Positions 37,164 through 52,402 of a stretch of 64,000 bases of DNA are shown here, in pieces. The translations under genes were made by a program, and so were the position numbers. Source of the stretch: a virus; IMG/VR virus record IMGVR_UViG_3300021961_008712, positions 64,001 to 128,000 of that record. One strand, given 5' to 3'. The notes beneath the pieces are model-generated. The model was not told the origin of the DNA and did no database searches. It worked only from the letters and a program-made list of their open reading frames with translations. Numbering within the stretch: position 1 is the stretch's first letter; every line of letters begins with the position of its first letter.

Positions 37164-37973
37164 ATGGCAAAAAATGTTGTTGTAAGTCTTTCTGGAGGGA
37201 TGGACTCCTCTACTTTACTACTTAGATGTTTATCTGAGTACGACAATGTAACAGCTTTATCTTTTGATTACGGTCAAAAGCATAGAGTAGAACTTGAAAG
37301 AGCTCAATCTTTAGTAGATTATCTAAATGATAATGTCTATTTTAGAAACGGTGATCAGATTAAGTATCAGGTTATTAAATTAGACGGGTTAGTAAATCTT
37401 CTTAACTCTGCTTTAGTAACCGGAGGTGCTGATGTACCAGAAGGACATTATGAGCAAGATAATATGAAAGCTACAGTAGTACCTAACAGAAACAAAATAT
37501 TTGCTTCTTTAGTTCAAGCAGTTGCTTTATCAGCAGCTAATGCTAATGGAAACAATACAGATATTGCATTAGGTATTCATGCTGGTGATCATGCTATCTA
37601 CCCTGACTGCCGTCAAGAGTTTAGAGATGCAGATGATGCTGCTTTTAGAATAGGTAACTGGGATGCTGAAAAGGTAGGTTACTTTACACCTTATTTAGAA
37701 ACTGATAAGTTTGGTATTCTACAAGATGGTGAAAAATTATGTAAGGATTTACAAATAGAATTCGATGAAGTTTACAAACGTACGAATACTTCTTACAAAC
37801 CTTACCCTTCAGGTAACTCGGATTATAAATCTGCTTCTTCCGTAGAACGTATTGAAGCGTTCATTAAGTTAGGTAGAAAAGATCCAGTTCAGTATGAAGA
37901 TGAGACAGGACCTGTGTCTTGGGAAGTAGCTAAGGCTGCAGTTGAAAAGGTATTAACCGATTACGTAGCTTAA
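37164..37973 (+). CDS. queC: 7-cyano-7-deazaguanine (preQ0) synthase
   Basis: SLSGGMDS PP-loop, FDYGQKH..E, VVPNRN, YPDCR. Confidence 0.92.
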   Translation: MAKNVVVSLSGGMDSSTLLLRCLSEYDNVTALSFDYGQKHRVELERAQSLVDYLNDNVYFRNGDQIKYQVIKLDGLVNLLNSALVTGGADVPEGHYEQDNMKATVVPNRNKIFASLVQAVALSAANANGNNTDIALGIHAGDHAIYPDCRQEFRDADDAAFRIGNWDAEKVGYFTPYLETDKFGILQDGEKLCKDLQIEFDEVYKRTNTSYKPYPSGNSDYKSASSVERIEAFIKLGRKDPVQYEDETGPVSWEVAKAAVEKVLTDYVA

Positions 37974-38053: not shown

Positions 38054-38127
38054 GCCTCCGTAGCTCAGTTGGCTAGAGCAGCTGATTTGTAATCAGCAGG
38101 TCGTGGGTTCGAATCCCTCTGGAGGCT
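38054..38127 (+). tRNA. tRNA-Thr(UGU)
   Basis: Acceptor GCCTCCG/TGGAGGC, D-arm GCTC..GAGC, anticodon arm GCTGA-TTTGTAA-TCAGC, T loop GTTCGAATC; CCA not encoded. Confidence 0.95.
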
Positions 38128-42270: not shown

Positions 42271-42300
42271 TTGCATATGAAATAAAAAGTTCTTATATTA
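42271..42300 (+). promoter_or_regulatory. Promoter TTG-N20-TATATTA
   Basis: Conserved motif heading the queD/queE operon. Confidence 0.6.
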
Positions 42301-42317
42301 TTATAATAGAAGACAAC

Positions 42318-42348
42318 AGTGTCGTAGCACCACTTTAAAAACACATTT
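42318..42348 (+). ncRNA. Candidate preQ1-I-like riboswitch aptamer (copy 1)
   Basis: AGTG-TCGTAGCAC-CACT-TTAAAAACAC, lying between the promoter and the first ATG of the queD/queE operon. Confidence 0.55.
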
Positions 42349-42600
42349 ATGAAAACAGAAGAACAAAGGTTATTAGACGAACTCTACGATGTAGAGACAA
42401 GAAGAGTATCTAAAATTAAAGATCTCTCCACCTCACCCACACTTGAAGATTATCCCGACGCAAAAAAACATCAAATTGTGTCGTTTATTAAATCAGGAAT
42501 TCGTATATTAGGATATATACTTATTCCTTTTGATTTATTTTGGGCAGCAGGAATATTAGTATTATCAGAAGTTGTTGGAATATTAGAAGAGTTGGTATGA
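42349..42600 (+). CDS. Small protein with C-terminal hydrophobic segment(s)
   Basis: 83 aa; IRILGYILIPFDLFWAAGILVLSEVVGILEELV. Confidence 0.6.
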   Translation: MKTEEQRLLDELYDVETRRVSKIKDLSTSPTLEDYPDAKKHQIVSFIKSGIRILGYILIPFDLFWAAGILVLSEVVGILEELV

Positions 42601-42761
42601 TAGAGGTAGTTAAGCACACTTTAGGAATTTGCGGAGAGCATTGGCATCCTAGTGCACTTACAGTATTAGCTAGCAGTCCATTATTTGTAGCTACAGTTAA
42701 CTACATTAAATGTAAATGCGGCGGATTGTTTAATCATAAAAAAAGTTGTAATAATGAGTAA
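42597..42761 (+). CDS. Small His/Cys-rich hypothetical protein
   Basis: Likely start is ATG 42597 (ATGA overlap): MIEVVKHTLGICGEHWHPS...CKCG...HKKSC. Confidence 0.5.
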   Translation: MIEVVKHTLGICGEHWHPSALTVLASSPLFVATVNYIKCKCGGLFNHKKSCNNE

Positions 42762-43224
42762 ATTTCAATCAACAAAAGTATTTGATGGATTTAGTACCTG
42801 CTTTAGACAATGGAAAGCAGAAGATACTCATTGTAGGTTTCTACATGGGTATGGAGTTTCAATTAAAATTTGGTTCGAAGGTGAATTAGATGAAAGAAAC
42901 TGGGTATGGGACTTTGGCGGTATGAAAAGAGCTAAAGGTAAAATAGACGGTTTATCTCCTAAAGAATGGTTTGAGTATATGTTTGACCATACTGTTATTG
43001 TAGCAGAAGATGATCCGCAATTAGGAAATTATTTCAGAAAAATGGACCGTAACGGTACAATCCAACTGCGTGAAGTACCTGCTACTGGAGCAGAGAAGTT
43101 TGCCGAATTTGTGTACTCAAAAGTTAATCCTTTTATTGAGGAAGAAACTAACGGTAGAGTAACTATTACTAAAGTAGAATTCAGAGAACACGATAAAAAT
43201 TCAGCTATTTATGTCCCTAGGTAG
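42754..43224 (+). CDS. queD: 6-carboxytetrahydropterin synthase (QueD/PTPS family)
   Basis: HCRFLHGY, WVWDFG, FDHT, TGAEKFA, EFREHDKNSA. Confidence 0.85.
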   Translation: MSKFQSTKVFDGFSTCFRQWKAEDTHCRFLHGYGVSIKIWFEGELDERNWVWDFGGMKRAKGKIDGLSPKEWFEYMFDHTVIVAEDDPQLGNYFRKMDRNGTIQLREVPATGAEKFAEFVYSKVNPFIEEETNGRVTITKVEFREHDKNSAIYVPR

Positions 43225-43987
43225 AATAGAAGATTATAATAAAGTACTACCCATCGTTGAACTTTATACTGCAGTACAATCTGAAGGTTCTAGACAAGGT
43301 TATCCGACTATTGTCATAAGAACAACAGGATGTACTCATAGATGCTACTTTGGAGAAGGTGGCTGGTGTGATAGCTGGTATACTTCTATTCACCCAGAAA
43401 AAGGTAGATATACCTTTAATGATATCATAGATATGTACGATAAAAATCCTCATATCTCAGAAATGATGTTAACCGGTGGTTCTCCTTCAATGCACGGCAA
43501 ATTAGTAAACGAATTAACACACCTAGCACATGAAAGAGGTATTTTTATCACTATGGAGAACGAAGGTAGTCATTACCTTGAGACCGATTATCCTATTGAT
43601 CTCCTGTCTATTAGCCCTAAGTTCTCTAATAGTGTTCCTATTATTGGCGTATCCACACCTCAAGGTGGTATAGTAGATGATAGAATGGTTAAACAGCATA
43701 ATAAGTATAGATTAAATTTAGACGCTATTAGAAAGTCAATTGCGTATCATAAGGACTACCATATTAAACCGGTATTAGATAAAGACTTAACTATATACAG
43801 CGAGGTTAGGCAGTTTTTAGATAGCCTAAATATTCCTAATGAAAAAGTCTGGATGATGCCAGCTGGAGATACAAGAGTTGCATTATTTGAAACTTATCCT
43901 GTAGTTATGGATTTTTGTAGAGATGAAGGTTACAGATTTACAGGAAGAGCACACATAATGGCATTTGATACACAACGAGAAGTATGA
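43211..43987 (+). CDS. queE: 7-carboxy-7-deazaguanine synthase (radical SAM)
   Basis: VQSEG, RTTGCTHRC...WCDS, LTGGSP, ENEG, SISPK, W.MP.G; adjacent to queD. Confidence 0.88.
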   Translation: MSLGRIEDYNKVLPIVELYTAVQSEGSRQGYPTIVIRTTGCTHRCYFGEGGWCDSWYTSIHPEKGRYTFNDIIDMYDKNPHISEMMLTGGSPSMHGKLVNELTHLAHERGIFITMENEGSHYLETDYPIDLLSISPKFSNSVPIIGVSTPQGGIVDDRMVKQHNKYRLNLDAIRKSIAYHKDYHIKPVLDKDLTIYSEVRQFLDSLNIPNEKVWMMPAGDTRVALFETYPVVMDFCRDEGYRFTGRAHIMAFDTQREV

Positions 43988-44238
43988 GTTTTATTATAGG
44001 ATCAAAATGTATTGGTACTAAAGATGGAGCCTGTATTGCAGTCTGTCCAGTAGACTGTATTGCAGAAGGAGAAGAATCTATGTACATTAATCCTGAAGTA
44101 TGCATTGACTGTGGTGCATGTGTCCCGGAATGCCCTGTAGAAGCTATATTTGATACAGAAGAACAAGCAATCGCAGCCGGAGAATTAGAAGCAGTAAAAA
44201 AGAATTATCAATTTTATGGTTTAACATACAAACAATGA
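43984..44238 (+). CDS. Ferredoxin (dicluster, 7Fe-type)
   Basis: CIGTKDGACIAVCPVDCI and CIDCGACVPECPVEAI. Confidence 0.9.
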   Translation: MSFIIGSKCIGTKDGACIAVCPVDCIAEGEESMYINPEVCIDCGACVPECPVEAIFDTEEQAIAAGELEAVKKNYQFYGLTYKQ

Positions 44239-44426
44239 CAGCAGAAGAATTTGTTATTTGGTTTAGAGGTTTTGTCAACGGTGCTCACCACTTTAATATT
44301 ACTCCACAGCAATGGGAGTACTTAAAGGAAAAACTAGATGAAGTAGAAAGTAAAAATACTCTAGCAGATTACACTGCCGGTAATTGGTTTATTAATAACA
44401 CATGGGAGAAAACAAAATCTACTTAA
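44235..44426 (+). CDS. Small hypothetical protein
   Basis: MTAEEFVIWFRGF...TPQQWEYLKEKL; overlaps both neighbours. Confidence 0.55.
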   Translation: MTAEEFVIWFRGFVNGAHHFNITPQQWEYLKEKLDEVESKNTLADYTAGNWFINNTWEKTKST

Positions 44427-44806
44427 CTTGGGAGGATGTCTATGAGCTATTAGACAAAATTCATGAACAAACAAAAGGAGAAATCAAATATGTAACCGGT
44501 ATTCCTAGAGGAGGAATTCTTTTAGCAGTACTTTATTCACATAGATTTAATGTACAGTACTTTGAATTTAAAAGTAATCATTATCATGATTTGTTAATTA
44601 TAGACGATATAGCTGATACAGGAGATACTTTTTTAAACTTAAAAGAAGACATAAAACTACCAAAAACAGCAGCACTTCATTATAAATCCACTTCTAAATT
44701 TAAACCTGATTTCTTCGGTAAGGAAGTACCAGGAGATTTCGGTTGGATAGTCTACCCTTGGGAAAAAAAAGATTCAAAACCAATTCAAGACTATTTGGAT
44801 AATTGA
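44402..44806 (+). CDS. Type I phosphoribosyltransferase (xanthine-guanine PRTase-like)
   Basis: GIPRGG, PRPP-binding LLIIDDIADTGDT, C-terminal WIVYPWE. Confidence 0.85.
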   Translation: MGENKIYLTWEDVYELLDKIHEQTKGEIKYVTGIPRGGILLAVLYSHRFNVQYFEFKSNHYHDLLIIDDIADTGDTFLNLKEDIKLPKTAALHYKSTSKFKPDFFGKEVPGDFGWIVYPWEKKDSKPIQDYLDN

Positions 44807-44824
44807 GCAAAAATTCGTATATTA
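44795..44824 (+). promoter_or_regulatory. Promoter TTG-N20-TATATTA
   Basis: Conserved motif upstream of folE. Confidence 0.6.
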
Positions 44825-44834
44825 AGATATAGAT

Positions 44835-44870
44835 AATGTGTCGCAGTACCACTTTAAAAACAAAAAATTA
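44835..44870 (+). ncRNA. Candidate preQ1-I-like riboswitch aptamer (copy 2)
   Basis: GTG-TCGCAGTAC-CAC-TTTAAAAACAAAAAA between the promoter and the folE ATG (44871). Confidence 0.55.
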
Positions 44871-45542
44871 ATGAATAACATTGAATTAGAATTAGTAAAA
44901 GAAGGATTTGCAAATGGTGTAGCCCCTGGGTTTCCTCTTACAGAAGTACAGAAAAGTGAAATGATTGAAGAAGCAGCATATGCTTATGGAAAGTTTCTAG
45001 ATGCTTTAGGATGTGACTGGAGAAATGACCCTAACTCAGCTGATACTCCTCGTAGAGTAGCTAAAGCATATGTAAGAGATTTATGGAGAGGACGTTATGA
45101 TGCAATGACTGAAATTACAGCATTCCCTTCTGATGGGTACAACGGTATCGTACAGGAGTCAAATATACCGGTGACGTCAATGTGTAGCCACCACCACCAA
45201 ACAATAGGTGGTCGTGTGAGTATTGCCTATGTACCGTCTGAGAATGGTAAAGTAGTAGGTCTGTCTAAACTCAACCGTATCGTCGAACACTTTGGACGAA
45301 GAGGTGCTATACAAGAGCAACTTACTGTAGCCATTCATAATGCAATCGATAAGATTTGTGAAGGTAACCTTGGAGTAGCTGTAATGATTGATGCAACTCA
45401 TAACTGTGTAAGTTGTAGAGGAGTTAAGCACCAAGGAGCTTCAATGCAGACAGCTAAACTATCAGGTTGCTTTCTTAACGAAGATTCTGCAAGAGCTGAG
45501 TTTTATAAAAACATAGAATTAGCAGGTAAATGTAGATATTAG
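44871..45542 (+). CDS. folE: GTP cyclohydrolase I
   Basis: DTPRRVAK, SMCSHH, GLSKLNR, IQEQLT, HNCVSCRGV; likely start is ATG 44871. Confidence 0.95.
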   Translation: MNNIELELVKEGFANGVAPGFPLTEVQKSEMIEEAAYAYGKFLDALGCDWRNDPNSADTPRRVAKAYVRDLWRGRYDAMTEITAFPSDGYNGIVQESNIPVTSMCSHHHQTIGGRVSIAYVPSENGKVVGLSKLNRIVEHFGRRGAIQEQLTVAIHNAIDKICEGNLGVAVMIDATHNCVSCRGVKHQGASMQTAKLSGCFLNEDSARAEFYKNIELAGKCRY

Positions 45543-45551
45543 GAGTATATT

Positions 45552-46277
45552 ATGTTTGAATGGATAAAAGAAAAATATGCGCACCTTGATAAAGACACTG
45601 TTCGCTTTAGAGCCGGAAGCCCAAACCCTATTATAAGGTTTGAAAATTTTCTTCCGGAAACAGAAGCATACAAACTCTATTATGAAAGCCAAAGTATACC
45701 AAATGTATACTGGAAAACTTTTGATAGAAATGGAAGTCATATGAAGGAGTTAAATAAAGTTGAACTTATGCCTATAGCATTCAATATTATTAACTACCTG
45801 AATAGCGGACCATTTTTAACTTACTTAGAGACATTAACAGGTATCGAAAGACTTATCCCAGATCCCCATTTAATAGGAGCAGGATACAGTAAGAGCTTTA
45901 ATGGTGATACCTTAAAGATACATACAGATTTTAACTGGAATAACGAATTAAGCCTTCATCGAGCATTAAGTTTAATAATCTATATTACACCAGAATGGAA
46001 GGCTGAATATGGAGGAGCATTGAGCTTTCTCGACAGAGATAGACAGCAAGAAATTTTTAAAGCTGATTGTTTATTTAATACAGCGTTAATTTGGAGACAT
46101 GGTAAATATGCTTTTCATGGATACCCAGATCCAATTCAATGTCCATCTCATTTGTCGAGAAATACTTTGAGACTGTTTTATTTTGTAAGTACCTCAGAAC
46201 ACAACCCAGATGATCCACCACACCGTAGTTTATACTGGTATGATGAAAAATTAAATGAACCTATAGATTTAAAATAA
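45552..46277 (+). CDS. 2OG-Fe(II) oxygenase
   Basis: LKIHTDFN, YGGAL, FHGYPDP, R.TLRLFY. Confidence 0.8.
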   Translation: MFEWIKEKYAHLDKDTVRFRAGSPNPIIRFENFLPETEAYKLYYESQSIPNVYWKTFDRNGSHMKELNKVELMPIAFNIINYLNSGPFLTYLETLTGIERLIPDPHLIGAGYSKSFNGDTLKIHTDFNWNNELSLHRALSLIIYITPEWKAEYGGALSFLDRDRQQEIFKADCLFNTALIWRHGKYAFHGYPDPIQCPSHLSRNTLRLFYFVSTSEHNPDDPPHRSLYWYDEKLNEPIDLK

Positions 46278-46278
46278 A

Positions 46279-47448
46279 ATGATTTACGTAAATTTTGGAA
46301 AGAACTCGAGTGAAGACCATAAATGGTATTGGGCAGATAAAGGAGCTAAAGAATATACAGAATGGACCTCTGCTGACAAAAACCCTATTTTCTATTATGA
46401 TAGACATGATTTAGCTATGAGAAATCTCGAGTTTAGAGACTTTGTTACAGAAGAAATGTGGGAACATTTTAGAACTAACGAAGAAGCTCTAATAGTAATT
46501 AATTTTGCTGATGATTATATTAACTCAGCAGACTTAGATAGATTTGCCTCTGATATCAAGCTTAGAAATGTAGATAGTTCTAGAGTTATTTTTGTATTGA
46601 TGGATCAAAATTTCATTGAGTTTGTAGTTAATGGACTAGCAGCTAGAGGAATAAATAATATTTCAGCTGATTACATTAATATTCTCATGAAAAGGGTACC
46701 TCCTAGGTATAATGATGAAGCAATAAAGACTCATAAATTCTCAATATTTAGTAGAAATTATTGGGATTGGAGGTTTGATATTTATTTAGAACTTCTTAAA
46801 AGAGGAGTATTAGCAAATACTAATTTCTCTTTTCATAATTACAATCCTTATACAAATGAATTATACGATGAGGAAAGACTAAAAGCTGATGCGATTAAAA
46901 AGGGACACGTAATAACCCAAGAAGTAGAAGAATTTATTAAAGGTGTACCCTACGATTTGGGGAGCAGAAGTAACAAATTCTCTGATGTTATTTACGAAGC
47001 ATTAAACACATCAGACTACCATATAGTTGTTGAATCTCATTTTGATCCTTTTTTAGGAATAAATTATGAGTTTGCTAAAAAAGACTATAATGAATTAACA
47101 ATCTCTCCTGGATTTATCACAGAAAAAGTATGGAAACCTATTGCGTGTAAAAGACCGTTTTTTATTGCAGCAACTCCATTTATTTTGAGAGATTTGAAAA
47201 AGTTAGGATATAAAACTTTCGGAGAATTTATTGATGAATCCTATGATGAAATCGTAGATGATAAACAAAGATTACTTGCTCTAACTTCTGAAATTGAACG
47301 CATAAATAATCTTCCAACCGAAGAGTATAATCAGCTTCTAGCTTCTTTGCAAAATATAGTAGAGTATAACCATAGTGTATATATTAACCAGTGGGAAAAT
47401 GTAAATTTTACTAAGTACCCTTTTCTACATGGAATAGTTGTACTTTAA
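46279..47448 (+). CDS. Glycosyltransferase-like protein (paralog)
   Basis: ITEKVWKPIACKRPFF; LGYKTFGEFIDESYD. Confidence 0.55.
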   Translation: MIYVNFGKNSSEDHKWYWADKGAKEYTEWTSADKNPIFYYDRHDLAMRNLEFRDFVTEEMWEHFRTNEEALIVINFADDYINSADLDRFASDIKLRNVDSSRVIFVLMDQNFIEFVVNGLAARGINNISADYINILMKRVPPRYNDEAIKTHKFSIFSRNYWDWRFDIYLELLKRGVLANTNFSFHNYNPYTNELYDEERLKADAIKKGHVITQEVEEFIKGVPYDLGSRSNKFSDVIYEALNTSDYHIVVESHFDPFLGINYEFAKKDYNELTISPGFITEKVWKPIACKRPFFIAATPFILRDLKKLGYKTFGEFIDESYDEIVDDKQRLLALTSEIERINNLPTEEYNQLLASLQNIVEYNHSVYINQWENVNFTKYPFLHGIVVL

Positions 47449-47467
47449 AATTATTTTTATTATATTA
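47438..47467 (+). promoter_or_regulatory. Promoter TTG-N20-TATATTA
   Basis: Conserved motif and spacing. Confidence 0.55.
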
Positions 47468-47472
47468 TAGAT

Positions 47473-47871
47473 ATGGAAATAGATATTAGACCTTGGGGTA
47501 GATATGAAGTGTTGCTAGATGCTGAATATACTAAAGTAAAGTTGATTACTGTAGAACCTCAAAAAAAACTATCGTACCAATCTCATGAAAAGAGACAGGA
47601 ATATTGGACTGTTGTTCAAGGTACCTTAACTGTAATTCTTGACGATAAAACTATTTCTGTACCTACCGGTGATTCTATTCACATTCCTTTAGGCTCTAAA
47701 CATAGAGCTTGGAATAAGACAGAAACTCCTGTTCAATTTGTAGAAGTACAAACAGGAACTTATTTTGGAGAAGATGATATCGTAAGATATGAAGATGATT
47801 TTGGAAGAGCCGAGTTAGAACATTTAAGAGATGGAAATTATATTGGCGGATTAACAATGCCTAAAAGATAA
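47473..47871 (+). CDS. Cupin, mannose-6-phosphate isomerase type II C-terminal domain
   Basis: RPWGRYEVL, LSYQSHEKRQEYW, EVQTGTYFGEDDIVRYEDD. Confidence 0.88.
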   Translation: MEIDIRPWGRYEVLLDAEYTKVKLITVEPQKKLSYQSHEKRQEYWTVVQGTLTVILDDKTISVPTGDSIHIPLGSKHRAWNKTETPVQFVEVQTGTYFGEDDIVRYEDDFGRAELEHLRDGNYIGGLTMPKR

Positions 47872-48602: not shown

Positions 48603-49143
48603 ACCTATATTAATTTTTGGAGATAGTTTTAGTTCCAACTGGGGCAAAGATTCAAGAAGAAGTTGGGTAGATATTATTTCGAAGAAATTTGATGTTGTTA
48701 ATGTCGCGGAAGCAGGAGTAGGAGAATATAAAATTTTTTCTCAAATAAAGTCGTTAGATCTGAATAATTTTTCGTATATTATAGGTAATCATACGTCACA
48801 TTCTCGTGTGCATTCTAGACAGTCAATTCACAATACCGTAATACATGGTAATTGTGATTTACTTTATCTAGACAGTATGCACTTAAAAGAAGCAAGATGG
48901 TTTTTTGAAAATGTGTATGATGATGATTATTTTAAATTTACTTATGAACTAATAAGGGATAAGATTAATAGTAAATTACAAGGTTATAGAAGGTTTATTT
49001 TTGACCCTTTTTATTCAGAATATAAAGACTCAGTAAGTTTTGTAAATAAGTGGAAATTTGATTCTAATAATAAAAATCACTTTGATGCAAAAACGAATAT
49101 TGAGATAGCAGAATTAATAAAAAATAAAATAGTTTATGGTTAG
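48592..49143 (+). CDS. SGNH-like protein
   Basis: IFGDSFS, NVAEAGVG, C-terminal NHF...N...AE. Confidence 0.55.
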   Translation: MKNKPILIFGDSFSSNWGKDSRRSWVDIISKKFDVVNVAEAGVGEYKIFSQIKSLDLNNFSYIIGNHTSHSRVHSRQSIHNTVIHGNCDLLYLDSMHLKEARWFFENVYDDDYFKFTYELIRDKINSKLQGYRRFIFDPFYSEYKDSVSFVNKWKFDSNNKNHFDAKTNIEIAELIKNKIVYG

Positions 49144-49957
49144 AATAGCTCACGAGAGTCCTAAAAGCATCTTTGATACTGTACAGAAGTTTACAGATTA
49201 CGATTATGCATTAGTTCATCTATTTGAAGAAGATGAAGAGTACTTAAATATGTTTAAAAAAGCTGTAAGTAGAGGGAGAGAAGTAATTCTCGATAACTCT
49301 ATTTTTGAGTTAGAAGAAGCTTTTGATGCAGATAGATTTGCATACTGGATTAAAGAATTGAGACCTACTTGGTATATTGTTCCGGATGCATTAGAGGATT
49401 CTAAGCGAACTATGAATCAAATGGCTGAATGGAATATGAAATACTCAAACGTTCCAGGTAAGAAAATTGGAGTTGTTCAGGGTAAGACATATGAGCAAAT
49501 TAAAGCTTGCTACATCTTTATGGATGAAATCGCAAAGGTAGACATGATTGCTATCTCTTTTGACTATTCGTATTATACTGAATCTGTCCCTCATCCTAAC
49601 AAATACGTAAGTTGGATGCTTGGGAGAGTTAAACTACTCGGAGACTTAATGAGAGACGGTGTGATAAACGAGAAGAAGCCTCATCACCTATTAGGATGTG
49701 GATTACCTCAAGAATTCCAATACTATAAACACTCAGACTATAATTGGCTGTATTCCTTAGATACCTCTAATCCGGTAGTACACGGTATTAAGGGTATAGA
49801 GTATAAAGACCAAGGACTTTGGAGTAAAGAATCGCAGAAACTATTTGAGATGATTAATAGTGAAGTAAGTATGGATCAACTTCATCTCATTAAGTATAAT
49901 ATTCAAAAATTTAGATGGTTTACAAATGGGCAGACGGACGTGGATAGCATTTTTTAG
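49136..49957 (+). CDS. dpdA: TGT-fold 7-deazaguanine insertion enzyme (DpdA family, probably DpdA3-like)
   Basis: ILDNSIFE, IVPDAL, GVVQG, HHLLG and SLDTS match the TGT/DpdA barrel pattern; embedded among que genes. Confidence 0.7.
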   Translation: MVRIAHESPKSIFDTVQKFTDYDYALVHLFEEDEEYLNMFKKAVSRGREVILDNSIFELEEAFDADRFAYWIKELRPTWYIVPDALEDSKRTMNQMAEWNMKYSNVPGKKIGVVQGKTYEQIKACYIFMDEIAKVDMIAISFDYSYYTESVPHPNKYVSWMLGRVKLLGDLMRDGVINEKKPHHLLGCGLPQEFQYYKHSDYNWLYSLDTSNPVVHGIKGIEYKDQGLWSKESQKLFEMINSEVSMDQLHLIKYNIQKFRWFTNGQTDVDSIF

Positions 49958-50468
49958 TCAGACAGGCGGAGAAATTGCTGACCTATCAGAAAAGCTTGGA
50001 TTTTGGCCTGATAGAATTATTACAAATGAAAGACCAGATCATCTCAGAACTGTAGATCCTAGAATTGAGAAAAGAGGGTACTTTACTTTTAGTAATAAAC
50101 CAGACCTAGAAGAATATGAAGATCTTCTGGTTTACTTTCCTGGAGCATTAATAACTCTTCACGGTTGGTTGAGAATTATGCCTTCTGAAATCTGTGAGAA
50201 ATTTAGCGTGTTTAATGGGCATCCTGGCTTAATAACATTATATCCAGAACTTAAAGGTAAGGATCCTCAAATTAGAGCGTATGAAGGAAAGTATGAAAAA
50301 ATAGGAGCTGTTTTACATAAAGTTACAGCAGGTGTAGATGAAGGTCCTATAATTGCGGAAGATTATTTTCTTAACGAAGGGTTGGAGCTTAACGATATTT
50401 TTCGTAAATTAAAAGATATCAGTTTATTTATGTGGTTTGTATACTTAACAACGGTTTTAAATGATTAA
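49926..50468 (+). CDS. PurN-like formyltransferase (candidate preQ1 formyltransferase, DpdN-like)
   Basis: FFSQTG, LHGWLRI, NGHPG, LHKVTAGVDEGPII; overlaps dpdA. Confidence 0.8.
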   Translation: MGRRTWIAFFSQTGGEIADLSEKLGFWPDRIITNERPDHLRTVDPRIEKRGYFTFSNKPDLEEYEDLLVYFPGALITLHGWLRIMPSEICEKFSVFNGHPGLITLYPELKGKDPQIRAYEGKYEKIGAVLHKVTAGVDEGPIIAEDYFLNEGLELNDIFRKLKDISLFMWFVYLTTVLND

Positions 50469-51493: not shown

Positions 51494-52402
51494 ATGGAAG
51501 AAGTAAAGAATTATCAAGACGTTGTAGCAATTGCATCTAAACACTTAGGTAAGGTAGGCGGTGATGGGTATAAGGATACTTATGATCCTTCACTACTAGT
51601 TAAAATTCCTCGTATCTTAAATAGAGAAGGATATGGTCTTTCCGGAAAAGAATTTGTAGGAGTTGATGTATGGAATGCTTACGAAGTATCAGCTATTACT
51701 ACTAAAGGTCAACCTGTTGCTGGTATGCTTAAAATCGTATGTCCCGCGAATTCGGAATTTCACGTAGAATCTAAGTCTATAAAATTGTATTTAAACTCTT
51801 TTAATATGACGCAGATTGGTAGTACTGCTGCTGACTGTATTACCGGTATTGAAGCTAGAGTAGAGAGAGACTTAAGAGAACTTTTAGAAGCAGACGTTAC
51901 AGCAAGATTCTTTACCTCAGAAATGGAATTTGAAAGTCTAACTTTCCAGGGATACGATCCTTTAGATCAAATAACTAACTTAGATGCTATAGACTTTACA
52001 GCCTTTAAATCTGATGCTTCTCAACTAGATGTTGAAGAGCATTCATCTAGTACCGAAATAAAGTACTCCTCTAATTTACTTAGATCAAATTGTAGAGTTA
52101 CTAATCAACCGGATTGGGGTGATGTGTTTATTCGAATGGAGGGTAAAAATATTCCCACACCAGAATCAGTAGCTAAGTATATTGTTTCTCATAGAACAGT
52201 TAGTCACTTCCATGAGGAGATATGTGAAATGATTTTTAAACATTTGATGGATGCTTGTAACCCTGATCAGTTAATGGTGGCTTGTTTATATACTCGAAGA
52301 GGAGGTATTGATATTAATCCTATTAGAGCTACACACTCATTATATATACCGGACTTCTTTACTGAGCCTCTATTTACTATTAAGAAGACCCTTAGACAAT
52401 AA
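51494..52402 (+). CDS. queF: NADPH-dependent preQ0 reductase (bimodular type)
   Basis: DVWNAYEVS, VESKSIKLYLNSFN, LLRSNCRVTNQPDWG, FHEEICE, YTRRGGIDINP. Confidence 0.93.
   Translation: MEEVKNYQDVVAIASKHLGKVGGDGYKDTYDPSLLVKIPRILNREGYGLSGKEFVGVDVWNAYEVSAITTKGQPVAGMLKIVCPANSEFHVESKSIKLYLNSFNMTQIGSTAADCITGIEARVERDLRELLEADVTARFFTSEMEFESLTFQGYDPLDQITNLDAIDFTAFKSDASQLDVEEHSSSTEIKYSSNLLRSNCRVTNQPDWGDVFIRMEGKNIPTPESVAKYIVSHRTVSHFHEEICEMIFKHLMDACNPDQLMVACLYTRRGGIDINPIRATHSLYIPDFFTEPLFTIKKTLRQ

What the first reader, a model, noticed from the sequence alone, without database searches (positions are those of the whole stretch)
42318..44870. Twin preQ1-I-riboswitch-like leaders in front of the phage's queD/queE operon and folE
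Seen: two near-identical non-coding elements, GTG-TCGTAGCAC-CAC-TTTAAAAAC (42319-42342) and GTG-TCGCAGTAC-CAC-TTTAAAAAC (44838-44861). Each lies just downstream of a TTG-N20-TATATT promoter and ends 6-9 nt before an ATG. One heads the operon containing queD-queE-ferredoxin-PRTase; the other heads folE. I saw no copy after any other promoter in the window. Established: class I preQ1 aptamers are a short P1 stem, a loop running from U to the ligand-pairing C, and an A-rich tail ending AAAAC. The T. tengcongensis aptamer, as I recall it, reads CUGGG-UCGCAGUAAC-CCCAG-UUAACAAAAC, and copy 2's loop differs from that by one deleted A. Inference: the phage uses ligand-sensing RNA (preQ1, preQ0 or a derivative) to feedback-regulate the first steps of a pathway that makes a DNA base rather than tRNA queuosine. 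With no SD sequence, control would probably work by sequestering the A-rich Bacteroidota initiation region. Caveat: P1 is only 3-4 bp, shorter than canonical.
Basis: partly seen in the sequence, partly recalled or inferred. Interest (0 to 1): 0.88.

Follow-up and report, generated by a model that had tools for sequence, protein, structure and literature searches.

The report
Mini preQ1-like riboswitch pair in phage
Two 28-base RNA leaders in this Flavobacterium-type phage look like a miniature preQ1 riboswitch. They sit only in front of the genes for the first three steps towards the modified guanine that the phage puts in its DNA, so the phage probably throttles that pathway with a metabolite-sensing RNA; ligand binding is untested.

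Summary
The two near-identical elements (42318-42345 and 44837-44864, + strand) are the only copies in the 169.75-kb phage genome.

Uncultured relatives show the anatomy:
- A 4-bp stem in which two pairs change in a compensating way.
- An almost invariant loop, U-C-G-N-A-G-N-A-C.
- A 7-10-nt A-rich tail ending in C.
- A covarying pseudoknot pair between loop position 4 and the third base after that C.

This is the layout of a type II preQ1-I aptamer (T. tengcongensis). The positions matching every ligand-contacting base are invariant.

Every copy found precedes FolE, the non-homologous FolE2, QueD, QueE, or a small-ORF-QueD-QueE operon. The exact motif occurs in no bacterial chromosome of 185,579 species. 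Nearly all motif-bearing phage records encode QueF, so they can make preQ1.

Against membership:
- Rfam's preQ1 model (RF00522) does not detect either copy.
- The stem is short and weak.
- There is no Shine-Dalgarno sequence.
- No ligand or transcript-start data exist.

Verdict: most likely a phage-only miniature variant of the preQ1-I riboswitch that shuts off translation (about 0.7). This scan noted the same motif earlier on other phage genomes. I found no paper describing it.

The parts
42271..42299 (+). Promoter-like boxes TTG (42271-42273) - N20 - TATATT (42294-42299) of transcription unit 1
   Evidence: Read. The same GTTG-N19/20-TTCGTATATT arrangement recurs about 20 times on the + strand of the genome. 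The transcript start is not mapped.
42318..42345 (+). Aptamer 1 (28 nt). P1 is 42318-42321 paired with 42331-42334 (AGUG/CACU). The loop UCGUAGCAC is 42322-42330, with U 42322 and the putative specificity C 42330. The A-rich tail is 42335-42342. Proposed P2 pairs are G42327-C42342 and U42325-A42345.
   Evidence: 57.7 bits. Covariation of P1 and of the second P2 pair in relatives is shown.
42349..42600 (+). First controlled gene: an 83-aa small protein with a hydrophobic C-terminus and no family match
   Evidence: no Pfam or PHROG match. More than 1000 homologous clusters occur in metagenomes. It is the first gene after the element in 52 of 92 instances.
42597..42761 (+). 54-aa Cys-rich ORF, coupled by an ATGA overlap to the 83-aa ORF and overlapping the queD start
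   Evidence: Read directly from the sequence. No family match for the longer TTG-started form.
42754..43224 (+). QueD (6-carboxytetrahydropterin synthase, PTPS family)
   Evidence: Pfam PF01242, E 6.6e-14. 71% identical to immuto QueD.
43211..43987 (+). QueE (7-carboxy-7-deazaguanine synthase, radical SAM)
   Evidence: Weak Pfam radical-SAM match. 72% identical to immuto QueE.
43984..44238 (+). 4Fe-4S ferredoxin
   Evidence: Pfam PF00037, E 5.9e-11.
44235..44426 (+). 63-aa ORF of unknown function
   Evidence: PHROG 28500 (unknown function), E 2.7e-5.
44402..44806 (+). Small phosphoribosyltransferase-domain protein, last gene of unit 1
   Evidence: Pfam PF00156 and PHROG 8995. 47% identical to immuto gp211.
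44795..44823 (+). Promoter-like boxes TTG (44795-44797) - N20 - TATATT (44818-44823) of transcription unit 2
44837..44864 (+). Aptamer 2 (28 nt), a divergent copy. P1 is 44837-44840 paired with 44850-44853 (UGUG/CACU, outer U.U mismatch). The loop UCGCAGUAC is 44841-44849. The tail is 44854-44861. The P2 pair G44846-C44861 is present; C44844 and A44864 do not pair.
   Evidence: 40.9 bits. This loop and stem combination is unique among 94 distinct leaders.
44871..45542 (+). FolE (GTP cyclohydrolase I), the entry enzyme of the pathway
   Evidence: Pfam PF01227, E 9.8e-44. 72% identical to immuto FolE.
37176..37868 (+). QueC (same pathway, no aptamer in front)
   Evidence: PF06508, 133 bits, at genome coordinates 101176-101868. 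No covariance-model hit there.
49136..50468 (+). DpdA3-like DNA transglycosylase (49136-49957) and DpdN-like formyltransferase (49926-50468), not aptamer-controlled
   Evidence: tblastn with immuto proteins gives 76% and 52% identity. ORFs listed.
51509..52399 (+). QueF (preQ0 to preQ1 reductase), not aptamer-controlled
   Evidence: 65% identical to immuto QueF.

Best explanation
Each element is a 28-nt ligand-sensing RNA of the preQ1-I kind, closest to type II. It sits in the 5' leader of a phage mRNA.

Proposed fold (inferred):
- When a free 7-deazaguanine base accumulates (most likely preQ1, possibly preQ0), the loop C just before the 3' strand of P1 pairs with it.
- The first loop U and the last tail A read the ligand's other edge.
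- The G-C pair that closes P1 forms the floor of the pocket.
- The A-rich tail docks along the 4-bp P1.
- The tail's C and the third base after it pair with loop positions 6 and 4, giving an H-type pseudoknot.

Proposed effect (inferred): the knot ends 3-6 nt before the start codon, inside the A-rich, Shine-Dalgarno-less initiation region used in Bacteroidota. It would therefore block 30S loading and lower translation of FolE and of the small-ORF-QueD-QueE operon. This is feedback on the three entry steps of the pathway that supplies the base replacing G in the phage DNA (predicted formyl-preQ1, as in phage immuto).

Shown here: conservation, covariation of P1 and of one P2 pair, exclusive gene association, restriction to phages, and co-occurrence with QueF.

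Inferred only: ligand identity, ligand-dependent folding, the OFF direction, and that the element lies within the transcript.
For: 1. Unbiased pattern scan of IMG/VR. The stem positions were left free. About 90 hits in a leader context all have 3-4 complementary stem bases, while chance hits have 0-1.

2. P1 covaries. Pair 1 is AU 40 / UA 13 / GC 11 and pair 3 is UA 49 / AU 18. Overall 98.9% of cells pair, and 0 of 500 shuffles reach this (repeated).

3. A pseudoknot pair covaries. Loop position 4 pairs with the third base after the final C: UA 23, CG 6, UG 5, AU 3, GC 3, GU 2, unpaired 14. Only 1 of 20,000 shuffles reaches this, and neighbouring columns are not significant. Of 17 rows with a non-U at position 4, 14 pair. 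The variant scans selected on position 4 only.

4. Pocket positions are invariant in the 56 distinct eight-nucleotide-tail leaders of alignment A2. These are the P1-closing G-C, U at loop position 1, A-C before the P1 3' strand, G at loop position 6, and the tail A-A-A-A-A-C. They correspond to G5-C16, U6, C15, G11-C30 and A29 of the T. tengcongensis aptamer and to the defining contacts listed in PMC11625349. Two rarer leaders with other tail lengths carry U instead of C at loop position 2.

5. Gene association. The first gene is the small ORF heading QueD-QueE in 52 instances, FolE in 32, QueD in 3 and QueE in 3. All 161 scored instances show these architectures. The single apparent exception precedes FolE2 (PF02649), a non-homologous isozyme.

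6. The element is optional and modular. Relatives with 80-89% identical FolE have the same promoter followed by a 20-nt plain leader.

7. It is phage-only. The exact pattern in 185,579 species' genomes finds only a 5.9-kb phage-like contig and an unrelated Lysobacter sequence.

8. QueF co-occurs. 25 of 27 motif-bearing records encode QueF, and the 2 that lack it are 28-30% fragments. Phages without QueF lack the motif.

9. The final C lies 5-12 nt from the ATG in nearly all of 94 distinct leaders.
Against: - Rfam RF00522 gives no hit on either copy at the gathering score, or at E<=10 on 151-nt slices, or in a whole-genome search.
- P1 has only 3-4 bp. Predicted energies are -0.1 to -2.4 kcal/mol, the z-scores are not significant, and in copy 1 the minimum-energy fold is a competing small hairpin.
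- P2 is reduced to one invariant pair plus one covarying pair. That second pair is absent in 25% of leaders, including copy 2 of this window.
- There is no Shine-Dalgarno sequence to sequester, so the expression platform differs from every characterised preQ1-I switch.
- The leaders come from a few related phage lineages, so cell counts overstate the number of independent events.
- The P1 rows in alignments A1 and A2 were pre-filtered for inner stem pairs. Only one search is unbiased for P1.
- There are no binding, transcript-start or expression data.
Confidence: 0.7

Rival explanations
1. The hairpin and tail form a translational operator bound by a protein, either phage- or host-encoded. One candidate is a PyrR-like use of the small PRTase encoded in the same operon. 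No small molecule would bind the RNA directly.
For: - The hairpin is small, with a conserved loop and a covarying stem, as in coat-protein or RegA-type operators.
- P1 is too weak to fold alone.
- A PRTase-domain protein is conserved in the operon.
- No ligand data exist.
Against: - Every conserved base coincides with a ligand-contacting or pocket-forming base of preQ1-I. That would be a coincidence for a protein site.
- The covarying loop-to-tail pair indicates a pseudoknot, not a simple hairpin.
- The PRTase is present in relatives that lack the element at one or both leaders.
Confidence: 0.15
2. It is a structured leader with no sensor role, for example an mRNA-stabilising 5' hairpin, a translation enhancer or a thermometer that happens to be shared by the two units.
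For: The tail is A-rich like ordinary Bacteroidota leaders. The element is dispensable in close relatives.
Against: - A generic stabiliser would not be restricted to FolE/FolE2, QueD and QueE among about 20 similar promoters per genome.
- It would not keep nine loop and tail bases invariant.
- It would not keep a covarying pseudoknot pair.
Confidence: 0.08
3. It is a DNA operator for a transcription factor, or a promoter-proximal DNA element, rather than an RNA.
For: It lies 13-18 nt downstream of the TATATT box, and the transcript start is unmapped. GTG...CAC is an inverted repeat.
Against: - The repeat arms change sequence while keeping complementarity: AGTG, GGAG, TGAG, TGTG and GGTG. The asymmetric loop and tail stay fixed, which is the reverse of a dimer-binding operator.
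- The element is always on the sense strand, at a fixed short distance from the ATG.
- The pairing between loop position 4 and a base 20 nt downstream makes no sense for duplex DNA.
Confidence: 0.03

Closest known systems
preQ1-I riboswitch, type II (Thermoanaerobacter tengcongensis and Bacillus subtilis queC aptamers; Rfam RF00522)
   Same: - H-type pseudoknot plan: P1, L1 (U-C), the 5' strand of P2 inside the loop, L2, and a specificity C preceded by A.
- A G-C pocket floor.
- An A-rich L3 tail ending in the C that pairs with a loop G.
- A second P2 pair after a two-base skip, like C9-G33 of T. tengcongensis.
- It controls genes for preQ1 synthesis.
- Copy 2's loop differs from the T. tengcongensis loop by one A.
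   Different: - P1 has 4 bp instead of 5, and L2 has 2 nt instead of 3-6.
- The tail is 7-10 nt including its final C (8 in most), and the whole aptamer is 28 nt against 33-34.
- P2 is cut down to two pairs.
- There is no Shine-Dalgarno sequence and no terminator.
- It is not detected by the RF00522 model.
- It is found only in phages.
- It regulates folE, which feeds a DNA modification rather than tRNA queuosine.
preQ1-I riboswitch, type III (E. coli; the smallest and most stringent class I consensus, PMC11625349, PMC10622847)
   Same: A very compact class I pseudoknot that controls translation, with A-C at the specificity position.
   Different: Type III has U-U after the P1 5' strand, a pyrimidine-rich loop and full burial of an AAGG Shine-Dalgarno sequence. 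The phage element has U-C, a purine-containing loop and no Shine-Dalgarno sequence.
Phage-encoded glutamine (glnA RNA) riboswitches of cyanophages and pelagiphage- or Melnitz-like phages (PMC9004378)
   Same: A metabolite-sensing RNA carried by a lytic phage to control the phage's own genes. Riboswitches in phages are described there as rare.
   Different: The fold and ligand differ. Those are recognisable members of a bacterial family, whereas this one escapes the family model and controls a DNA hypermodification pathway.
DUF805 RNA motif (Rfam RF03081, orphan Bacteroidota leader motif)
   Same: It has a short hairpin followed by UUAAAAAAC. It was the only cis-regulatory bacterial family that touched copy 2 in the permissive scan.
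   Different: It scores 11.7 bits against a gathering score of 51.1. The second hairpin of that motif is absent and the gene context is different. It is not a member.

Membership tests
preQ1-I riboswitch (Rfam RF00522) | Scores at or above the curated gathering score (39 bits) of the family covariance model | tested here: not met
   No RF00522 match at either copy at the gathering score, at E<=10 on 151-nt slices, or in the whole genome, where the best hits were 10.7-12.5 bits at unrelated places. A longer-tailed relative (L170) is also not hit.
preQ1-I riboswitch (Rfam RF00522) | P1 helix supported by covariation | tested here: met
   A 4-bp P1 in which 2 of 4 pairs show compensatory changes. 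98.9-99.1% of cells pair, and 0 of 500 shuffles reach this. It is one pair shorter than the 5 bp of the B. subtilis and T. tengcongensis aptamers (PMC10639078).
preQ1-I riboswitch (Rfam RF00522) | H-type pseudoknot: P2 between loop bases and the 3' tail | tested here: met
   The pair between G at loop position 6 and the tail C is invariant. Loop position 4 pairs with the third base after that C using six pair types; 42 of 56 rows pair and 1 of 20,000 shuffles reaches this. There are only two pairs, and the second is missing in 25% of leaders, including copy 2 here.
preQ1-I riboswitch (Rfam RF00522) | Cytosine specificity base immediately 5' of the P1 3' strand (preceded by A in types II and III; PMC11625349) | tested here: met
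   A-C is invariant in 56 of 56 distinct rows. In the window this is C42330 and C44849.
preQ1-I riboswitch (Rfam RF00522) | L1 uridine after the P1 5' strand, a G-C closing pair as pocket floor, and an adenine of the A-rich L3 next to the P2 cytosine (ligand contacts U6, G5-C, A29/A30; PMC11625349) | tested here: met
   All are invariant columns in alignment A2. This shows sequence correspondence only; no structure was determined.
preQ1-I riboswitch (Rfam RF00522) | Located upstream of preQ1 or queuosine synthesis or transport genes | tested here: met
   All instances precede FolE, FolE2, QueD, QueE or the small-ORF-QueD-QueE operon.
preQ1-I riboswitch (Rfam RF00522) | Expression platform: Shine-Dalgarno sequestration in P2 or a terminator/antiterminator | tested here: not met
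   The bases after the tail C are A-C-A or A-A-A, with no purine-rich Shine-Dalgarno-like run. No terminator lies between the element and the ATG. Control is inferred to act on the Shine-Dalgarno-less initiation region.
preQ1-I riboswitch (Rfam RF00522) | Selective binding of preQ1 (then preQ0, then guanine) | not testable with these tools
   This needs in-line probing, ITC or reporter assays.
DUF805 RNA (Rfam RF03081) | Scores at or above the gathering score (51.1 bits) and has two hairpins | tested here: not met
   11.7 bits, E 9.1, on copy 2 only. The second hairpin is deleted in the alignment.

The most novel reading that the evidence does not exclude
This would be a distinct, phage-only fourth type of class I preQ1 riboswitch and, at 28 nt, the smallest natural riboswitch aptamer. 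It would work without any Shine-Dalgarno sequence by knotting the A-rich initiation region of Bacteroidota mRNAs. It may also have shifted its specificity from preQ1 to the phage's own pathway product or intermediate, such as 7-formamidomethyl-7-deazaguanine or preQ0. That would make it the first riboswitch dedicated to DNA hypermodification.
Probability: 0.2. Interest if true: 0.9.

Novelty: new variant of a known kind. Interest (0 to 1): 0.78.

Why it matters
If ligand binding is confirmed:
- It would be the first riboswitch shown to govern a phage DNA-hypermodification pathway. In phage immuto, G is completely replaced by a 7-deazaguanine derivative (bioRxiv 10.1101/2023.04.13.536721).
- It would set a new lower size limit for natural aptamers, about 28 nt with a 4-bp P1.
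- It would give a natural example of riboswitch control of translation in a host group that does not use Shine-Dalgarno pairing.
- It would show that curated covariance models miss compact viral variants of known classes.
- In practice, it offers a tiny preQ1-responsive part for Bacteroidota genetics, and a marker for phages that make preQ1-derived DNA.

Tried and rejected
- **Rfam, all 4227 families.** The gathering-score scan found only a tRNA. Permissive scans of both leaders gave noise hits only: a microRNA, coronavirus UTR pieces, and DUF805 RNA at 11.7 bits. RF00522 across the genome hit only unrelated places at 10.7-12.5 bits.
- **Thermodynamic folding.** It was uninformative for so small a motif. 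The z-scores ran from +0.7 to -1.4, and P1 is not the minimum-energy fold in copy 1.
- **Sigma-70 promoter and terminator scan.** It found fewer promoter-like sites than the shuffles and no terminator after either element. The phage's own GTTG-N19/20-TTCGTATATT boxes were found by regular expression instead.
- **Megablast of the region against GenBank phages.** No match. Relatives were reached through the FolE protein.
- **Coding explanation for copy 2.** A GTG at 44838 is in frame with folE. I rejected this because the spacing to the ATG varies by non-multiples of three among relatives, and in immuto my own frame count on the sequence puts the tail's TAA in frame with the folE ATG.
- **Other pseudoknot partners.** Loop positions 2 and 3 against downstream bases, and position 4 against neighbouring columns, gave no signal.
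- **Host genomes by taxonomy.** This was not possible for a virus record. The only bacterial test was the exact-pattern scan, so diverged host versions are not excluded.
- **Literature.** I found no paper in the held library linking a preQ1 riboswitch to phage 7-deazaguanine clusters. The paper on immuto's modification does not mention riboswitches, and the 2024 preQ1 review does not mention phages.
Full report
**Observation**

A degenerate 24-mer allowing 3 mismatches finds only these two sites in the window, against 0 expected from shuffles. It also finds only these two in the whole 169,750-bp virus record that holds the window.

Each element follows TTG-N20-TATATT. Their final C lies 6 nt and 9 nt before the ATGs at 42349 and 44871. 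The genome has about 20 promoters of the same GTTG-N19/20-TTCGTATATT type on the + strand. The others are followed by short plain leaders.

**Gene context**

Pfam and comparison with Flavobacterium phage vB_FspM_immuto identify the genes:
- After copy 1: an 83-aa small ORF, a 54-aa ORF, QueD, QueE, a ferredoxin, a 63-aa ORF and a small PRTase.
- After copy 2: FolE, then a 2OG-Fe(II) oxygenase and a 389-aa protein of unknown function.

The rest of the immuto pathway is present but has no copy of the element in front:
- QueC (37176-37868).
- DpdA3 (49136-49957), DpdN (49926-50468) and QueF (51509-52399).

In immuto, G is completely replaced by 7-(formylamino)methyl-7-deazaguanine (bioRxiv 10.1101/2023.04.13.536721). 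The same modification is the likely product here; this is an inference from gene content.

**Family models**

No Rfam family reaches its threshold on either element. The preQ1-I model RF00522 gives nothing at the gathering score, nothing at E<=10 on 151-nt slices, and only unrelated hits of 10.7-12.5 bits across the genome. A weak DUF805 RNA hit (11.7 bits against a cut-off of 51.1) touches copy 2. By the curated model, the element is not a member of the family.

**Comparative evidence for P1**

Immuto has GGAG-UCGUAGAAC-CUCC-AUAAAAAC in front of folE. The loop is the same and the stem has changed in a compensating way.

An IMG/VR pattern scan fixed only the loop and tail. It returned two clearly separate groups:
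- About 90 hits in A/T-rich leaders behind a TATATT box and 5-15 nt before an ATG. All have 3-4 complementary bases on the 5' side.
- About 35 hits in unrelated contexts, with 0-1 complementary bases.

The stems seen are AGUG/CACU, GGAG/CUCC, UGAG/CUCA, UGUG/CACA and GGUG/CACC. On 67 distinct leaders, 98.9% of stem cells pair. Pair 1 is AU 40, UA 13, GC 11, and pair 3 is UA 49, AU 18. No shuffle out of 500 reaches this. Those rows were chosen for having inner stem pairs, so one search is the unbiased evidence for P1.

**Comparative evidence for the pseudoknot**

Three further scans selected only on a non-U base at loop position 4 or a changed position 3. Loop position 4 covaries with the third base after the tail's final C.

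On 56 distinct rows the pair types are UA 23, CG 6, UG 5, AU 3, GC 3, GU 2, and unpaired 14. That is 42 of 56 paired, reached by 1 of 20,000 shuffles. The four neighbouring columns show nothing. Of 17 rows with a non-U at position 4, 14 pair, and they occur in several different stem backgrounds.

Together with the invariant pair between G at loop position 6 and the tail C, this gives a two-pair P2. An A lies opposite two skipped bases. This is the arrangement of G11-C30 and C9-G33 in the T. tengcongensis aptamer.

Copy 1 of the window has both pairs (G42327-C42342 and U42325-A42345). Copy 2 has only the first.

**Match to the preQ1-I pocket**

The published aptamer sequences (PMC10639078) and the class I recognition rules come from the literature. 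The rules are a specificity C preceded by A in type II, an L1 uridine, an L3 adenine and a G-C floor (PMC11625349).

These map one-to-one onto columns that are invariant in the eight-nucleotide-tail leaders of the phage alignment. Two rarer leaders with other tail lengths carry U instead of C at loop position 2.

The differences are:
- P1 has 4 bp instead of 5.
- L2 has 2 nt instead of 3-6.
- The tail is 7-10 nt including its final C (8 in most).
- There is no Shine-Dalgarno sequence.
- The total length is 28 nt.

**Gene association**

Among 92 instances, the first downstream ORF is:
- the small ORF that heads QueD-QueE: 52;
- FolE: 32;
- QueD: 3;
- QueE: 3;
- cut by a contig end: 1;
- unassigned: 1.

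The unassigned one is FolE2 (PF02649), a non-homologous GTP cyclohydrolase I. It sits in the same place, after the PRTase. The element therefore follows enzyme function rather than sequence ancestry. All 161 scored instances show these same architectures. No copy was found before any other kind of gene.

**Distribution**

- Complete or large relatives carry 0, 1 or 2 copies.
- Contigs with 80-89% identical FolE have the same promoter but a plain leader of about 20 nt. One of them (L127) lacks the element at both units. The element is thus a modular, optional insert between promoter and start codon.
- The exact pattern in one genome each of 185,579 bacterial and archaeal species gives only two kinds of hit. 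One is a 5.9-kb, 34% GC contig with both copies, evidently phage DNA binned into a MAG. The other is an unrelated GC-rich Lysobacter sequence.
- 25 of 27 motif-bearing records encode QueF, and the two exceptions are 28-30% fragments. Phages without QueF (phiST, MA9V-3 and two others) lack the motif. Some QueF-positive phages also lack it.
- This fits preQ1 as the sensed base, but does not prove it.

**Mechanism (inferred)**

The pseudoknot's 3' edge is 3 nt (copy 1) or 6 nt (copy 2) from the ATG. Across 94 distinct leaders the final C is 5-12 nt from the ATG in nearly all. There is no terminator and no Shine-Dalgarno sequence.

The most economical model is an OFF switch. Ligand binding locks the A-rich initiation region into the knot and lowers translation of FolE, QueD and QueE. 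P1 alone is predicted to be marginal, at -0.1 to -2.4 kcal/mol. That is what one expects of a fold that needs its ligand, but it is also a weakness of the evidence.

Copy 2 of this window is the most divergent leader seen. It has an outer U.U mismatch, no second P2 pair and a unique loop. It may be a weaker or decaying sensor.

**Rivals**

- A protein-bound operator cannot be excluded without biochemistry. It does not explain the exact coincidence with the preQ1-I pocket, nor the pseudoknot pair.
- A DNA operator is unlikely. The arms vary while the asymmetric loop is fixed, and a base 20 nt downstream covaries with the loop.

**Novelty**

I found no paper in the held library that reports a preQ1-type riboswitch in phage 7-deazaguanine clusters. 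The 2024 review of the preQ1 family does not mention phages, and the paper describing immuto's modification does not mention riboswitches. Phage riboswitches are known but rare; the glutamine class is one example (PMC9004378).

This scan's own earlier notes describe the same motif on other phage genomes. I reached the same reading independently and tested it here. Those notes are not independent evidence.

I rate it a new variant of a known kind.

Noticed in passing
L089:8327-8942 (IMG/VR contig): In one relative, the gene behind the folE-type aptamer is FolE2 (PF02649) instead of FolE. This is a non-orthologous replacement that keeps the RNA element.
   Followed up: yes
L127:960-1045 and L127:3940-4000: A contig whose FolE is 89% identical to this phage's lacks the aptamer at both leaders. 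The same TATATT box is followed by a plain leader of about 20 nt, so this is a natural 'deletion' control.
   Followed up: partly
window 42597-42761 (+): A 54-aa Cys/His-rich ORF lies between the 83-aa ORF and queD. It is coupled to the 83-aa ORF by an ATGA overlap and has no family match.
   Followed up: no
window 44402-44806 (+): A small PRTase-domain protein is conserved inside the QueD-QueE unit of this phage group, including immuto gp211. Its role in 7-deazaguanine DNA modification is unknown. It could make a nucleotide from the base, or it could be regulatory like PyrR.
   Followed up: partly
window 42312-42323 (+): In copy 1 and many small-ORF leaders, a conserved GAC(A/U) 5' of P1 can pair with the invariant (U)GUC of P1 and L1. 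This is the minimum-energy hairpin and could be a ligand-free alternative fold. Covariation cannot be tested because one side is invariant.
   Followed up: partly
L170:3925-3990: A folE leader variant has the loop UCGUAGUUC (U-C rather than A-C before the P1 3' strand), a tail of about 20 nt and an AAAGG run before the ATG. It may link the phage motif to longer, Shine-Dalgarno-using forms. RF00522 does not hit it.
   Followed up: partly
L209 (NYWG01000135.1, 5.9 kb, 'Verrucomicrobiales' MAG): A 34% GC contig carries both aptamers and the same gene order. It is almost certainly phage DNA mis-binned into a bacterial MAG.
   Followed up: partly
L207, L208, L210 (three Lysobacter genomes): An identical 24-mer, GCGTCGCAGAACCCCTATAAAAAC, and its flanks are conserved in three Lysobacter species with 69% GC. 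The flanking bases do not form the P1 stem, so it is unrelated to the phage motif. Its function is unknown.
   Followed up: no
window 38054-38127 (+): A phage-encoded tRNA (Rfam 67.8 bits) lies just after queC. By my reading of the anticodon loop it is tRNA-Thr(UGU).
   Followed up: no
window 45552-47871 (+): Behind folE lie a 2OG-Fe(II) oxygenase, a 389-aa protein with no family match and a cupin resembling the C-terminal part of mannose-6-phosphate isomerase. This differs from immuto at the same position, and the genes are presumably co-transcribed under aptamer 2.
   Followed up: no
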